Below, piece by piece: positions 38,144-42,968 of a DNA stretch of 54,375 nucleotides (its first letter is position 1; every line of letters begins with the position of its first letter). The notes below the pieces were generated by a model that worked only from the letters and a program-made list of their open reading frames with translations, did no database searches and was not told the DNA's origin. The stretch lies in IMG/VR virus record IMGVR_UViG_3300024420_000237, positions 62,001 to 116,375 of that record; one strand, written 5' to 3'. The translations under genes and the position numbers were made by a program. Source of the stretch: an uncultured virus (IMG/VR IMGVR_UViG_3300024420_000237) (Duplodnaviria; Heunggongvirae; Uroviricota; Caudoviricetes).

Positions 38144-38371
38144 ATGAAAGTGTTTATGATTATCATCTTTATGGTATCCTCCGGAGAACAAATAGTTCCA
38201 CCCGGAATGGAACCTAGAGAATTCAACACAATAGAAGAATGTGAATTGAAGCTAGCCGCCGCGGTAGAGTTTATCGAATACGGTATTAGAACCGAACAGT
38301 TGCCTAGATATTATATTGGGTATAAAGCGGAATGCGTTCAATCAGAAGACGTAGCGCCTTCGATGCAGTGA
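38144..38371 (+). CDS. Small protein with hydrophobic N-terminus and two Cys
   Basis: MKVFMIIIFMV..FNTIEECE..AECV; ATG lies 5 bp after CATAAATA (38131-38138); 3' end overlaps the resolvase gene convergently. Confidence 0.55.
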   Translation: MKVFMIIIFMVSSGEQIVPPGMEPREFNTIEECELKLAAAVEFIEYGIRTEQLPRYYIGYKAECVQSEDVAPSMQ

Positions 38372-38877
38372 TTCTCAAATGCATTTGAATTATACTTCCA
38401 AAATTCTTCTGCACTTGTAATAATCCAACAACCATTCTTCTCAGACTTGTAAGTTGTACTAATCGGTGAACGCCATCCGATTCCATTCATATGTTCTTGA
38501 TATGCAACATAAGTTCCTATACGATTAAATTTCATAAAGATAATGTTAACGTCACTATCTTCTGCAATCTCCATAGTTTGTACAATCCAGTCCTCTAAAA
38601 GAGGAATTTTTTTATCGTACAATAAATGGTGCCAAGGGAATTCTTTATAAAACTTACACTCACAGTTAAAGTACTTCCAGTTATCAGGAGGTATAATATC
38701 TCCTTTAAAACCTCGTACTTGTCCTTCGCTTAAGTTAGTTGCTCTATGGAAATTACTTCCACCTATAAATGCTCCAGAATTAGGGACACGTACAAAACTA
38801 CCATTATATTTCTCACTTAGGAATTTTGCTTGTTCTCTTTCATATCCAGAACCTTTAGATTTGCTTTTACTTGGCAT
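38338..38877 (-). CDS. Holliday junction resolvase (PD-(D/E)XK, Hjc-like)
   Basis: SKSKGSGYERE, RVPNSGA, GDIIPP and ECKFY motifs. Confidence 0.8.
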   Translation of the reverse strand: MPSKSKSKGSGYEREQAKFLSEKYNGSFVRVPNSGAFIGGSNFHRATNLSEGQVRGFKGDIIPPDNWKYFNCECKFYKEFPWHHLLYDKKIPLLEDWIVQTMEIAEDSDVNIIFMKFNRIGTYVAYQEHMNGIGWRSPISTTYKSEKNGCWIITSAEEFWKYNSNAFENHCIEGATSSD

Positions 38878-38977
38878 ATGTTTAATCTCTTTTCATTATA
38901 AAAGGTCTAAAGACCTAATCCCAATTAATATTCATTCGTTAGCACTCATTCATATTAATCGGTATTTCTATTTCTTT

Positions 38978-39006
38978 ATTATATAACATTAATTGGTATA
39001 AGTCAA
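38978..39006 (-). promoter_or_regulatory. Sigma70-type promoter for the resolvase gene
   Basis: Minus strand TTGACT (39006-39001), 17 bp, TATAAT (38983-38978). Confidence 0.7.
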
Positions 39007-39019
39007 ATGATATTATATT

Positions 39020-39460
39020 ATGAGTCTCTGTCCCGTGAAGAAGCCATAATTGCCCTGTTGCCAGGACAATTAAAAAATGGCTGTACAGAAAATCTTGTCT
39101 TATCTGTCCCTTGCTCATCGCCTCTATGTCTAAGTTAGTCGCTAGTTACGACGGAGTCGGTTGACGATCCCTCCTTAACTTAGTATTGCGCCTTTCGGCT
39201 CAACGGCACCTTTTATAATCCACATAGATAGAAACTATAAAAAGCCGATAGTGTTATAAAAACCTATCATCGGTAATATTATACTAGTCAACCATGTTCT
39301 TTAGGAACCATGGCTGTTTTATGATTATGAATACTCTTTTGTGGTTTACGAGAAGAATGTCAGAATTCATCCTGACTAGTCTGACGGCAAACACTACATT
39401 TGCAATCTCAATCCCGAATCGGCAACCCGATTAACAGTTCCACTATGTATGCTGAGGTAT
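39020..39460 (-). ncRNA. Candidate large structured non-coding RNA (~440 nt), family not recognised
   Basis: No ORF of 60 aa or more in a gene-dense genome. About ten helices are readable by eye, with two GNRA tetraloops and G-U pairs that form only on the minus strand. Confidence 0.65.
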
Positions 39461-39523
39461 TAGTCATTATCTTTTCCCTTTGCAAATTATATTAGTTATG
39501 TAAATGTATTAGTTGTTATTAGT
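39458..39523. repeat. Four direct copies of TATTAGT (ACTAATA on minus)
   Basis: At 39458-39464, 39490-39496, 39507-39513 and 39517-39523. Confidence 0.7.
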
Positions 39524-39525
39524 CT

Positions 39526-39759
39526 TTATAATATCGGTGTGCCTGCTTTTTTGCTCATTTCAAAGTTCTGGTCGATAATCTCATTCAGATGTTTGATATG
39601 GCCCACTGGCATTTCATGAAGTTCAGAGATTGAAACCCCTCCTCTCATGTACCAAGATAATTGTAACAGATTCTTATGTACTTTGTCAAGCTCTTTTTGA
39701 AAGTTTTTTTGTTTTTCTACAATTTCTTCACCGCTGGCGGTTGCTAGCCAGCTTAGGAA
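39526..39759 (-). CDS. gp51-like C-terminal extension reached by predicted -1 frameshift from the gp26-like ORF (77 aa)
   Basis: Not in ORF track. Open -1 frame FLSWLATASGEEIVEKQKNFQKELDKVHKNLLQLSWYMRGGVSISELHEMPVGHIKHLNEIIDQNFEMSKKAGTPIL*; no ATG/GTG/TTG until residue 38. Confidence 0.75.
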   Translation of the reverse strand, partial: FLSWLATASGEEIVEKQKNFQKELDKVHKNLLQLSWYMRGGVSISELHEMPVGHIKHLNEIIDQNFEMSKKAGTPIL

Positions 39760-39765
39760 AAATTT
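39733..39765 (-). promoter_or_regulatory. Programmed -1 ribosomal frameshift signal
   Basis: In-frame slippery heptamer A-AAU-UUU (39765-39759), 6-nt spacer UCCUAA, hairpin GCUGGC-(8 nt)-GCCAGC (39752-39733). Confidence 0.75.
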
Positions 39766-40586
39766 GCAGGGTTTATTTCAATGTTTACTTTTTCTGTAGA
39801 TTGACACTCTGGGCATGTGAATTCGAATGTATTCAATGATTCTGGCTTCTTAGCAATAGTTTTAACTCTATTGTCCATGCTAGTAACTACTTTAGTTGGA
39901 ACGTTAGCAAGAAACTCAATAATTTGTTTCTTGTCTGATACGTTACCATCTGGTGTTTCTATATGGTCTATAGTTTCAGATATTAAGTCCACATTATACT
40001 CTGCTACACGTTTGAAACTTTTGTAAAATCTTTTAGCAAGTTCCAACTCATCCTTTTCATCTTCCATAGTGTGCTTTACATTATCGATGATTCGCTTTTC
40101 TTCAAGCTGGATAAGAGCAACCCGTGTAACACTTTCTAGTGTTGGTGGTCTTAAATGTATTGTTAAGTCTTCATATATTACAGGCTCTACCTCATTAATT
40201 TCTGGGAACTTGTTTAATACAAAGTCAATATCTATATTGAATTCATTTTGGTTTTCACACTCTTTACATTTGTGCGTATATGTAACGTCTTTTCCATTTG
40301 TTGCATATTGTATTGCCAAATAAAGAGCCTCAGCATCAATGTTACACAACTTTCTTGCATCTTTGATACTAGGAACACAGCTTTCTATTAGAGATATTAA
40401 CGCCTCACCATTAAGAAGTGCATCTGGATTACGCATTGTAATCTCATCGATTGCAGTCATAGGCATAACACCCACTTCTTCAATAATGGTTTGGTCAATT
40501 TCTGGATTAAATTTGCCTTTAGTTGGCAAACTAACATATAGTGCTGGCTTTCTAAAGTATTTGTTCAGCGGGTTGTCGGTCATCAT
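39753..40586 (-). CDS. Baseplate hub assembly chaperone (T4 gp26-like)
   Basis: LPTKG, PMTAIDE, LIESCVP, DAEALYLAIQYAT, two CxxC motifs (CKEC, CPEC); ends PANFS. Confidence 0.75.
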   Translation of the reverse strand: MMTDNPLNKYFRKPALYVSLPTKGKFNPEIDQTIIEEVGVMPMTAIDEITMRNPDALLNGEALISLIESCVPSIKDARKLCNIDAEALYLAIQYATNGKDVTYTHKCKECENQNEFNIDIDFVLNKFPEINEVEPVIYEDLTIHLRPPTLESVTRVALIQLEEKRIIDNVKHTMEDEKDELELAKRFYKSFKRVAEYNVDLISETIDHIETPDGNVSDKKQIIEFLANVPTKVVTSMDNRVKTIAKKPESLNTFEFTCPECQSTEKVNIEINPANFS

Positions 40587-40600
40587 TAATTCCTTGGATT

Positions 40601-40682
40601 GATAAATACACTTATAATAAAACTTAAAGTGTTATATACGTATATTTAGACATATTATAAACTACGTAGTTTAACTTGTCAA
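40601..40682. promoter_or_regulatory. Face-to-face promoters: late (+) for tape measure, consensus sigma70 (-) for gp26-like with a palindrome in its spacer
   Basis: GATAAATA 40601-40608 (+); minus TTGACA 40682-40677, 17 bp, TATAAT 40659-40654; TAAACTACGTAGTTTA 40658-40673. Confidence 0.75.
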
Positions 40683-40694
40683 GAGGTATTTTGA

Positions 40695-42968
40695 ATGGCT
40701 GAAGGAAATGTTTACATTGAAGGTATTGATCCTTCCATCCCGGGATGGGCAACTGAGACTACTATGGCTCAGATACGTCAAATATTGGCAACAATATCTG
40801 GTAACTCGGCTGAGACAAGCACAGCATTAGATAAAATTTATACAAGCGAGAGCGGAGACGCTCAAAAACAGTATAAGATATTACATGATACGTTAGGTGC
40901 AGTTAGGACACAATCACAAGAGACTGCAAAAGCCACACAAAAAGAACAGCAAGAAAGTGCAAAAAATACAATTCATCAAAACAAAATAGCTGGATTTTTT
41001 GAAACACTTATAAGACAAAACGAAACACAAGCAAATATTTTAAAAACTACCGCAGAAAGACAGCGTGAATTAGCAATTAACAAAAATATCACTGCACAAG
41101 GCGGCGATATGACTGATGCTACGACCAGAGAACTGGCAGGCATGAAATACGATGAAGAAGCATTAGCAGAAAGATTTAAAGAAGCAGGCAAAGTCGTATC
41201 AAGAGCGGCAGTAGGAATTTTAGCAACGACTAAAGCTATTAACAGCTTTATGGGACAACAAACAGAAGACAGATTTAACATGGCACAAGAAATTAGACAA
41301 TCGGGTCTAATGGCAGGCCTTTCAGATGTAGAGTCTGGTCTTACAAGTATGTCTAAAATGATACACGAAAACAATTTCACATTAGGTGAAGCGGCAGAAT
41401 TTACAAAACAGTTTTCAAGGTCTGTTGGTATTGTAGGAGTTAAATCATCTTTGGAATTCGCAAGTTCTTTGCAGAAAGCACGTAGTGAAGGCGGACTTGC
41501 TATGACAGCCGAATTCGGACTTGAGTTTGGAGAAATAACTTCATTGGCAGGTGAGTACTTAGACTCATTAAGAAATATGGGTGTACTTGACAGAATGAGT
41601 CAACAGCAATTACGTGATGGTATGGACGATTTCATGTCAGGCGTTTCGTCAACTGCAAATGTTTTAAAAATAAACTTAGAAGATGCGGCTAAGATGATTT
41701 CGCAAACTCTACAACGTGACGATGTAACATCAAGATTGGTTACGATGGATCCTAATAGAGCAAACGCTATTAGAGAAACTATTGGCTCAGCGGGAATGTT
41801 AGAAGGTACATTGGGACAGGCAGTTATCGAAAGAATGGCGGCAGGAAGCCAAGGTGCATTTGTACGTGAGCAATCATTCCAACAGTTAAGTGGTACAGGT
41901 ATTGGTAAAGAATTACTTCCAATTGTAGAGCGTCTTGCGATGGCAGGCGAACAAGGACCAGAGGCATTTCAAACTGCTATTGCTGATTTGTCTCCCGATA
42001 TTCAAGGCATTATTGCAAGTGCAAGTCAAGAAGGCAATCGTGCAGTTTTACAGACAGACCAATTTTTGCAGTCAATGATTGCAGATTTGTCTCGTCTTAG
42101 AGCAACGGTTGAAGATGCAGATAAAGGACCAACTGGCCCATCAGAAGCAGACAAGGCTGTGCTAGAAGGAATTGATACAAGAAGACAGGCGGTAGTTGCC
42201 CTTGAACAAGTACTTGACGAACAGGTTAAAGGTTTTACATCTATATTAGGCGAACAAAATACTGCAAATAAAGCCTTATTGGCAGAAGCAGTAGAATTTG
42301 CAAACACATTTAGTCCACTAGCATCAACAGTAACACTACTAACTGGTAAATTTGATGTTGCGGTAACTGACCTACAAACAAGTTTGTTAAGTGCTGGCAC
42401 AAGTATTGTCGATTGGGCAAACAAAATAGTGGGCGCTGAGGTTTCTGAAAGCCAGACAGATAGTAGTAATGAAACAAGAGACATACAAACGGCAACAGAT
42501 TCTACGTTAGAAACAGGCAGAGAAGTTCTAAATCAAAATGATTTAACCAAGGACGACCGAAACATTATTAAAAGAGTATTTACTGATACCGATGCTGAAA
42601 ATATGTTTGATAAAATCAATAGTATACTGCTAACTGAAGGACCAAATAAAAGCGAAGATATCGCAGATGATTTAAAAGATTTGACTAAACTACTTGGTTT
42701 GTTTAAGCCAGGTGAAGAATACGGCGAAACTCAGGCGGCACAATTACGAGCAGTTATGGAAGCAATCGGAACTACAGATGCGTCAAAGACTGAGGAAGGC
42801 CAAGAAAATATGAGATTAATGATACAAGCATTAGAAAACCTAGAAACCAAGTATACAAGCATTAATCCTGGGTCTTATTTTGGAAGAGACAACGTTGAAA
42901 ATGCGGCAGAGAAAGATGCAGTATTAATTGAATTACGTAATCTAGTGAATGCGTTAAATAATAATTAA
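40695..42968 (+). CDS. Tail tape-measure-like protein
   Basis: 757 aa, A/Q/E/L-rich, helical character, few Pro and no Cys; adjacent to the gp26/gp51-like chaperone locus. Confidence 0.6.
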   Translation: MAEGNVYIEGIDPSIPGWATETTMAQIRQILATISGNSAETSTALDKIYTSESGDAQKQYKILHDTLGAVRTQSQETAKATQKEQQESAKNTIHQNKIAGFFETLIRQNETQANILKTTAERQRELAINKNITAQGGDMTDATTRELAGMKYDEEALAERFKEAGKVVSRAAVGILATTKAINSFMGQQTEDRFNMAQEIRQSGLMAGLSDVESGLTSMSKMIHENNFTLGEAAEFTKQFSRSVGIVGVKSSLEFASSLQKARSEGGLAMTAEFGLEFGEITSLAGEYLDSLRNMGVLDRMSQQQLRDGMDDFMSGVSSTANVLKINLEDAAKMISQTLQRDDVTSRLVTMDPNRANAIRETIGSAGMLEGTLGQAVIERMAAGSQGAFVREQSFQQLSGTGIGKELLPIVERLAMAGEQGPEAFQTAIADLSPDIQGIIASASQEGNRAVLQTDQFLQSMIADLSRLRATVEDADKGPTGPSEADKAVLEGIDTRRQAVVALEQVLDEQVKGFTSILGEQNTANKALLAEAVEFANTFSPLASTVTLLTGKFDVAVTDLQTSLLSAGTSIVDWANKIVGAEVSESQTDSSNETRDIQTATDSTLETGREVLNQNDLTKDDRNIIKRVFTDTDAENMFDKINSILLTEGPNKSEDIADDLKDLTKLLGLFKPGEEYGETQAAQLRAVMEAIGTTDASKTEEGQENMRLMIQALENLETKYTSINPGSYFGRDNVENAAEKDAVLIELRNLVNALNNN

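What the first reader, a model, noticed from the sequence alone, without database searches (positions are those of the whole stretch)
39020..39460. Large ornate candidate ncRNA between the frameshifted chaperone and the resolvase
Seen on the minus strand: AAUCGG/CCGAUU (39432-39417); GCAAAU/GUUUGC; long-range ACUAGUCA/UGACUAGU (39380-39373 with 39290-39283); CAGCCAU-GUUC/GAAC-AUGGUUG (39316-39289); CCGAU-GAUAG/CUAUCGG; UUUUAUAGUU/GAUUAUAAAA; GCC-GAAA-GGC (within 39203-39186); a three-way junction closed by CUAAGUUA/UAACUUAG (39183-39130); and AGCCAU..UAAUUGUCCUG-GCAA-CAGGGCAAUUAUGGCU (39082-39042). There is a possible pseudoknot UCUAUGU/ACAUAGA and a repeated GGGACAGA. GNRA loops and G-U pairs agree on the strand. 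A candidate promoter (TTGACA-18-TACAAT, 39689-39660) lies upstream. I could not recognise tmRNA, RNase P, group I/II intron or hammerhead cores. Inference: an unclassified large phage RNA comparable in complexity to GOLLD/ROOL-type RNAs, or a structured replication/packaging element.
Basis: partly seen in the sequence, partly recalled or inferred. Interest (0 to 1): 0.85.

Follow-up and report, generated by a model that had tools for sequence, protein, structure and literature searches.

The report
Pseudoknotted jumbo-phage RNA, probable replication primer
The gene-free stretch holds a real, intricately folded non-coding RNA of about 430 bases that marine giant phages share with gut-bacterial giant phages; its surroundings suggest, but do not prove, that it primes DNA replication.

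Summary
The RNA is real. It has no Rfam match. Seventy-two distinct marine homologues at 58-100% identity support 13 local helices and four pseudoknots (92% of cells paired; 57 of 96 pairs change on both sides).

It appears to be a distant, single-copy marine branch of the multi-copy RNA of RaK2/121Q-like phages, which this scan found earlier on other DNA. Both share pseudoknot order and genome position, but a covariance model did not bridge them.

Best reading (about 0.5): a ColE1/T4-style RNA-primed replication origin. The marine cassette runs: helically phased CTAATA repeats, RNA, AT-rich tract, DNA-type GNA mini-hairpin on the RNA-like strand (37 of 42 copies; antisense 0). It moved whole to one unrelated contig. 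Enteric copies are co-oriented and evenly spaced, and occur on chromosomal islands with no recognisable replication gene.

Nothing functional was tested. Skew was uninformative, and expression strand and level are unknown.

The parts
39753..40586 (-). T4 gp26-like baseplate-hub gene, always upstream of the RNA in the marine clade
   Evidence: PHROG 150, E 3.7e-23; RNA found downstream on the same strand in 73 of 73 hub loci with room, 7 of 80 dropped for lack of room
   Evidence: open -1 frame; site kept in 8 of 43 homologues; frameshift itself not tested here
39458..39522 (-). Array of four CTAATA direct repeats (iteron-like; binding protein unknown)
   Evidence: 69 of 70 homologues have 2 or more copies, none antisense; spacings cluster at 9-12, 17-25, 31-37 and 42-46 bp; last copy 44-47 bp before the invariant CGGGATTGA in 47 of 53
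39328..39451 (-). RNA 5' domain: closing helix 39443-40/39344-41, hairpins 39432-17, 39403-387, 39375-60, invariant UGAG/CUCG helix, pseudoknot a (39369-65 with 39332-28). True 5' end unknown
39211..39316 (-). RNA middle: hairpin 39316-289, 5' strand of pseudoknot b (39287-83), hairpin 39268-47, hairpin 39242-11 whose loop gives pseudoknot c (39228-22)
39123..39210 (-). RNA core: invariant GCCGUU, pseudoknot d (39204-00 with 39164-60), GNRA hairpin 39199-90, three-way junction 39183-130, 3' strands of pseudoknots b and c. This is the part best shared with the enteric-phage RNA
   Evidence: GNRA loop in 70 of 72
39025..39122 (-). RNA 3' part with terminal hairpin 39071-39048; true 3' end unknown
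   Evidence: 91.3% paired
38963..39024 (-). AT-rich tract (candidate unwinding element); here it also holds a sigma70-like site TTGACT-17-TATAAT at 39006-38978
   Evidence: 82% A+T against 59% in the RNA; promoter pattern in 10 of 46 homologues
38921..38962 (-). Long hairpin capped by a GA-flanked G-N(1-2)-A mini-hairpin (core 38947-38936); read as a single-stranded DNA signal
   Evidence: 37 of 42 and 62 of 79 copies, antisense 0, mostly three-base loops
38904..38915 (.). Conserved short palindrome GGTCTTTAGACC, terminator-like
   Evidence: seen in nearly all downstream flanks printed; terminator scan
38338..38877 (-). RusA-like Holliday-junction resolvase; a variable neighbour, not part of the element
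   Evidence: PHROG 244, PF24608; detected in 25 of 80 hub loci

Best explanation
The RNA is the structured pre-primer of an RNA-primed replication origin, working like ColE1 RNA II and the T4 R-loop origins. SHOWN: the folded RNA, the flanking repeats, AT-rich tract and mini-hairpin, and their order. INFERRED: transcription enters the element (from the hub-gene promoters in the marine clade, from an own sigma70-type promoter in enteric phages); the four-pseudoknot fold holds the 3' end as a persistent hybrid at the AT-rich tract; a nuclease trims it and the phage polymerase extends it; the displaced RNA-like strand exposes the GNA mini-hairpin, where a primase or primosome starts the lagging strand; a protein bound to the CTAATA repeats gates or opens the origin. 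Enteric phages space 4-5 such origins round the genome, and small integrative elements have captured one in order to be replicated during infection.
For: (1) The downstream motif has the signature of a DNA hairpin: three-base GNA loops in 24 of 37 and 46 of 62 cases, with T-A/C-G covariation of the closing pair, while the RNA's own hairpin keeps GNRA tetraloops in 70 of 72. Such mini-hairpins are much more stable as DNA than as RNA and mark primase sites of G4, St-1, alpha3 and ssiA (PMC13037366, passages). (2) It is strand-specific: enteric copies have C-G-closed GNA loops downstream on the sense strand in 52 of 57, antisense in 3, at 5.4 per kb against 0.3-0.6 per kb genome-wide. (3) ColE1 has exactly one GA-flanked motif on its two strands, at 1331, 140 nt after the A-run at 1191 on the RNA II strand; that the A-run is the origin and the motif lies in ssiA is recalled. 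(4) AT-rich tract and helically phased repeats match T4's promoter-plus-unwinding-element and oriE repeats (PMC3016281, passages). (5) Enteric copies all lie on one strand, also where the neighbours face the other way, and are more evenly spaced than random (P 0.0002-0.026). (6) Nine of 25 pattern hits in bacterial genomes are true copies; 7 of 9 have an integrase or large recombinase and 6 of 9 a small resolvase nearby, and none of the 70 ORFs scanned matched a primase, helicase or initiator family. (7) The whole marine cassette, with a new promoter, occurs in one non-syntenic contig (L570). (8) A 5'-3' exonuclease gene, the family of T4 RNase H (family link recalled), is present in 4 of 4 genomes.
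Against: No functional test. GC and AT skew follow gene direction and show no replication signal. Two near-complete marine genomes carry one detectable copy. No sequence similarity to ColE1 or to any plasmid. T4 R-loops need no specific RNA sequence, so the ornate fold is unexplained by that model. The GA-flanked motif is not rare genome-wide (13-28 per phage genome), and T-A-closed versions are weaker than those reviewed. The five spacing tests are not independent. Vibrio phage 2.275.O has no gap at this place and no copy was detected in it, Atu_ph07 or SCTP-2. In PA5oct the C-G-closed mini-hairpin lay on the antisense strand behind 2 of 3 copies. No RNase HI in 2 of 2 or Pol A in 3 of 3 genomes searched. 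Several island ORFs match no family and could be unrecognised initiators. An earlier scan note read the enteric downstream repeats as RNA hairpins, not origin parts (e1-240482).
Confidence: 0.5

Rival explanations
1. A trans-acting ornate RNA like GOLLD or ROOL: it folds, perhaps oligomerises or binds proteins, and acts away from its gene; copies raise dosage.
For: Size, multi-pseudoknot fold, GNRA loops and own promoters (extended -10 in 49 of 52 enteric copies). Contigs covering it occur in seawater RNA libraries. A three-copy RNA family in PA5oct includes an RNA-seq-annotated lncRNA.
Against: A trans-acting RNA does not need one orientation, even spacing, or a strand-specific DNA-type hairpin behind it. 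PA5oct ncRNA004 is only 0.02-0.08% of phage reads, and its homology to this RNA is not shown.
Confidence: 0.22
2. A defence or counter-defence RNA (decoy, antitoxin or trigger) that islands captured along with their defence genes.
For: Island cargo includes nSTAND3, HamA, KwaB, ADP-ribosylglycohydrolase and DUF488/DUF4326/dual-OB genes.
Against: The cargo differs between islands while the RNA tends to sit beside the recombinase; no partner gene is constant in phages; it does not explain spacing or the downstream hairpin.
Confidence: 0.09
3. A cis-acting transcription element (antiterminator or processivity RNA, like HK022 put; recalled) or a large leader for the downstream gene.
For: Cis action would explain co-orientation and spacing; it lies 5' of a gene in the marine clade.
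Against: The copy beside the hub gene in 121Q and GAP32 points into the end of a convergent gene; the marine downstream gene varies.
Confidence: 0.07
4. A ribozyme, intron relic or selfish mobile element (HEARO/omega-like) that multiplied in some genomes.
For: Invariant unpaired nucleotides in a pseudoknotted core; several copies; transfer to islands and to L570.
Against: No Rfam intron, ribozyme or HEARO match; no interrupted gene and no constant nuclease or transposase neighbour; copies are old (about 70% alike) and at conserved positions.
Confidence: 0.07
5. A directional signal for genome packaging or ejection.
For: Also predicts one orientation and even spacing; lies among virion genes and next to a resolvase.
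Against: Early-type sigma70 promoters in enteric copies; the islands show no capsid-related families in the 70 ORFs scanned.
Confidence: 0.05

Closest known systems
Multi-copy structured RNA of RaK2/121Q/GAP32-like jumbo phages
   Same: Same genome interval downstream of the hub gene; three pseudoknots in the same order (a and c, d; a rests on one covarying pair plus inspection); shared CCGUU and AACC; terminal hairpin; AT-rich tract and GNA mini-hairpins behind.
   Different: Marine form is single-copy, inverted relative to the hub gene, has CTAATA repeats instead of an extended -10 promoter, an extra GNRA hairpin and pseudoknot b, and lacks an inserted 5' domain. BLAST, nhmmer and a covariance model do not link the two.
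ColE1 RNA II pre-primer origin
   Same: Long structured transcript (521 nt predicted in a relative) followed on the same strand by a GA-flanked GNA mini-hairpin.
   Different: No sequence similarity; no antisense RNA I or Rop looked for or seen; phage encodes no Pol A; priming not tested.
Phage T4 R-loop origins oriF/oriG and oriE
   Same: Several origins per genome, promoter plus AT-rich unwinding element, evenly spaced direct repeats at oriE, location near a switch of transcription strand.
   Different: T4 origins are about 100 bp, share no sequence and need no RNA structure.
GOLLD, ROOL, OLE large ornate RNAs
   Same: Large, covarying, phage-associated, function unknown (PMC12286853 and PMC5737381, search listing only).
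   Different: No Rfam match; oligomerisation and abundance not tested; cis-type flanks.
PA5oct ncRNA004 family
   Same: Three co-oriented copies, one in the same hub-resolvase gap, one transcribed; AT-rich tract and a shared 32-nt block behind two copies.
   Different: Not matched by the descriptor or either profile; homology unproven.

Membership tests
Any Rfam family (GOLLD, ROOL, HEARO, RNase P, tmRNA, group I/II introns, small ribozymes) | Covariance-model score at the gathering threshold | tested here: not met
   0 hits in the window; best E 0.56 over the region; 14 homologue loci gave only two sub-threshold hits outside the RNA; enteric and PA5oct loci no hit on the element; ARAGORN 0
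RaK2-like multi-copy RNA | Sequence or covariance-model similarity | tested here: not met
   blastn, nhmmer both ways and model R1 (best E 0.53) fail
RaK2-like multi-copy RNA | Shared core topology (CCGUU/AACC, two nested helices, two pseudoknots) | tested here: met
   Descriptor finds 58 of 72 marine and 12 of 14 enteric copies, 0 of 14 reverse strands, 0 of 1400 shuffles, and 4 hits in four whole genomes, all at known copies. It was written after seeing both families.
RaK2-like multi-copy RNA | Several copies per genome | tested here: not met
   One copy in each of two 342-kb genomes
ColE1-type origin | Sequence homology to RNA II/ori | tested here: not met
ColE1-type origin | Single-strand initiation hairpin downstream on the RNA-like strand | tested here: inconclusive
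   Motif of the same form is present and strand-specific; primosome binding not testable
ColE1-type origin | Antisense RNA I control | not tested
   no plus-strand promoter of 10 or more matches of 12 in 38800-40750; no stranded reads
ColE1-type / T4 R-loop origin | Persistent RNA-DNA hybrid used as leading-strand primer; autonomous replication | not testable with these tools
   needs bench work; skew proxies uninformative
T4 R-loop origin | Promoter followed by an AT-rich unwinding element | tested here: inconclusive
   AT-rich tract present (82% marine, 73% enteric); promoter clear in enteric copies (49 of 52) but sigma70 pattern within 110 bp upstream in only 1 of 70 marine copies
HEARO/omega RNA | Adjacent IscB/HNH gene in an IS200/IS605 element | tested here: not met
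   neighbours are hub and RusA-like genes; varied genes in 121Q
GOLLD/ROOL-type RNA cages | Homo-oligomer and high abundance | not testable with these tools
   only assembled contigs were available

The most novel reading that the evidence does not exclude
All RaK2-like jumbo phages start replication from an ancient, four-pseudoknot RNA machine that makes or positions its own 3' primer end (possibly catalytically), and a class of Rep-less satellites has stolen this RNA origin to be replicated by the jumbo phage.
Probability: 0.2. Interest if true: 0.95.

Novelty: new variant of a known kind. Interest (0 to 1): 0.8.

Why it matters
How 350-kb RaK2-like phages start replication is not described in the papers I found. 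If the reading holds, this is a phage origin built on a large tertiary-folded RNA, conserved from coliphages to marine phages. It is directly testable in cultured coliphages with the plasmid assay that defined T4 oriF and oriG, and it would give a function to a large ornate RNA. Even if not an origin, the marine branch adds deep covariation that fixes the fold of an undescribed RNA class and shows which nucleotides matter.

Tried and rejected
Rfam at gathering and E-value level, window and homologues: nothing. blastn of the window element against cultured phages and plasmids: nothing useful. Pattern scan of 185,579 prokaryote genomes for the marine core: 0, so no host clue. Covariance model R1 on 21 cultured-phage loci: best E 0.53, although two weak hits fell on the element. 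Search for further marine copies by blastn, nhmmer, model, descriptor and by reading 6 of 14 gaps of 300 bp or more in G001: none. GC/AT skew: tracks gene direction. Metatranscriptomes: 21 of 24 listed runs are on record as RNA; in 4 laid runs only contigs exist, so strand, ends and level cannot be read and DNA carry-over is not excluded; two contigs span hub gene and most of the RNA (39211-40622, 39211-40616), which does not show one transcript. Sixteen loci of the pattern scan had no profile hit and were dropped as chance; 8 of 80 distinct hits were dropped as partial. HEARO, group I, group II and RNase P resemblances were considered from memory and rejected on Rfam and context. Phosso, Atu_ph07, SCTP-2, Vibrio 2.275.O: no copy detected; Phosso's 1-kb gap has only by-eye resemblance. 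Distant relatives L028/L029 have hub and resolvase in another arrangement and no hit. Literature: nine searches gave no description of this RNA. Fremin et al. 2023 (PMC10690425) list candidates of at most 151 nt from IMG/VR, six upstream of RusA genes; five motif words were not found in the six files searched, but the two alignment archives could not be searched, so fragments may be there.

Full report
Setting. The window is part of a 116-kb virus record of a T4-like jumbo phage: portal, major head protein, gp46/47, late sigma factor, baseplate hub and a RusA-like resolvase. A close relative is a complete 342,607-bp genome, G001. The nearest cultured phages by hub protein are the RaK2/121Q/PA5oct group at about 30% identity. 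The finding lies on the minus strand between the -1 extension of the hub gene and the resolvase.

The observation. The minus strand folds better than shuffles (z -3.22) and the plus strand does not (z -0.85). Protein- and pattern-based scans of IMG/VR gave 80 distinct profile hits, of which 72 are near full length, at 58-100% identity to the window. On 40 distinct sequences, 96 proposed pairs are 92.2% paired and 57 change on both sides; no shuffle of 500 reached this, and slid partners give 35-44%. Because kin share changes, I counted changes on a tree: covarying pairs of the four pseudoknots changed 3 to 9 times, nearly always on both sides together. G-U outnumbers A-C 276 to 43 and the small hairpin keeps a GNRA loop in 70 of 72, so the element works as RNA on the minus strand. 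Rfam and ARAGORN find nothing.

Distribution. The RNA follows the hub gene in 73 of 73 viral loci with room and in 72 of 73 metagenome loci with room. The downstream gene varies: the resolvase was detected in 25 of 80 loci. One copy per genome was found in two 342-kb genomes. No copy of the marine form was found in prokaryote genomes. Seawater RNA libraries hold the stretch, but only as contigs, so strand and level are unknown.

Link to cultured phages. 121Q, GAP32 and XaC1 have an unannotated gap of about 800 bp in the same interval. It holds a conserved element on the opposite strand, with 296 places in 74 phage records: four copies in 121Q, five each in GAP32, XaC1 and Munch, two in RaK2, all on one strand. 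This family was reported earlier by other agents of this scan; I met it independently and took the lead on chromosomal islands from those notes. Sequence methods do not connect it to the marine RNA. Structure does: covariation in 48 enteric copies gives the same hairpin-loop pseudoknot c and pseudoknot d in the same order, with weaker support for pseudoknot a. A descriptor of the core finds 58 of 72 marine and 12 of 14 enteric copies, none in 1400 shuffles, and only known copies in four whole genomes. The descriptor was written after I had seen both families, so it overstates the test; with shared position and flanks I put homology at about 0.85. PA5oct has its own three-copy family with one member in this gap and one annotated from RNA-seq at 0.02-0.08% of phage reads (PMC7318152, passages); its homology is unproven.

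The flanks. Upstream, 69 of 70 marine copies have two or more CTAATA repeats, none antisense, spaced at multiples of about 11 bp; enteric copies instead have an extended -10 box in 49 of 52. Downstream comes an AT-rich tract (82% and 73% A+T against 59%) and then a hairpin capped by GA-flanked G-N(1-2)-A loops. It occurs in 37 of 42 viral copies and 62 of 79 metagenome copies, never antisense, and in 1.3% of shuffles (the two sets overlap in origin). Most loops have three bases, with T-A and C-G alternating as closing pair. Enteric copies have C-G-closed GNA loops downstream in 52 of 57, antisense in 3. A review states that such mini-hairpins are far more stable as DNA than as RNA and lie at primase sites of phages G4, St-1, alpha3 and of ssiA (PMC13037366, passages). 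ColE1 has one such GA-flanked motif, downstream of its origin on the RNA II strand. In contig L570 the whole marine cassette sits behind a new promoter among unrelated genes.

Mechanism. These parts match, in order and strand, an RNA-primed origin: ColE1 RNA II forms an R-loop, is trimmed, primes the leading strand, and a stem-loop initiation site serves the lagging strand (PMC5935869 and PMC3167613, passages); T4 uses several origins made of a promoter and an AT-rich element, one with evenly spaced repeats (PMC3016281, passages). An origin also explains one orientation regardless of neighbours, even spacing (one or two independent observations, as positions are inherited), and capture by islands that carry recombinases but no recognisable replication gene among 70 ORFs of 90 or more residues near the nine copies (E. 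coli island). All steps from hybrid formation onward are inference. Against: no skew signal, a single marine copy, no similarity to ColE1, no detectable copy in several relatives, mixed results in PA5oct, no RNase HI or Pol A gene though a 5'-3' exonuclease is present, and an earlier scan note that reads the enteric downstream repeats as RNA hairpins. I give the origin reading 0.5 and a trans-acting ornate RNA 0.22.

Novelty. Nine literature searches found no description; a recent Asteriusvirus genome paper does not mention it in the passages seen. Short fragments may be among the candidates of PMC10690425, whose alignment archives could not be searched. It is not a member of any curated family. 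As an RNA class it is undescribed; as a mechanism it would be a new variant of RNA-primed origins.

Noticed in passing
window 39765-39526 (-): -1 frame extension of the hub gene with a slippery run; reported earlier by the scan.
   Followed up: partly
window 39228-39407: Contigs of 3 of 4 RNA runs join 39228 to 39407, skipping 178 bases ('between: not known', side 44). May be a related strain or a template switch across the fold.
   Followed up: no
L570:1900-3000: Whole cassette with its own sigma70-type promoter in a 13-kb metagenome contig without the hub gene, among small unknown ORFs and an HNH gene; possibly a marine satellite or small phage.
   Followed up: partly
L042:1980-3490, L339:3117-3735, L351:5310-6222: PA5oct three-copy element; two copies share an identical 32-nt block downstream; one is the published ncRNA004.
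   Followed up: partly
L044:2486-3501: Phage Phosso has a 1-kb gap between an RNase HI gene and the resolvase with GC-rich hairpins and mini-hairpin-like repeats; no profile or descriptor hit.
   Followed up: partly
L687, L689, L694, L696, L698, L700, L702, L705, L432: Enterobacterial islands with the enteric RNA, recombinases, often a CI-like repressor and LprI gene, and varied defence cargo (nSTAND3, HamA, KwaB, ADP-ribosylglycohydrolase, DUF488/DUF4326/dual-OB).
   Followed up: partly
G001:C1:324660-325282: A 620-bp gap rich in hairpins and inverted repeats, unrelated by profile to the RNA.
   Followed up: no
enteric copies, e.g. L316, L317, L432: A hairpin module with loop like ACAATATAGATCCGTCC is inserted at different places in different copies.
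   Followed up: no
L190, L235, L109 and others, downstream flank: In many marine homologues a different gene, not identified here, replaces the resolvase directly behind the cassette.
   Followed up: no
window 40682-40654 (-): Perfect sigma70 consensus followed by a TAAATA late-type box upstream of the hub gene; candidate source of read-through into the RNA.
   Followed up: no
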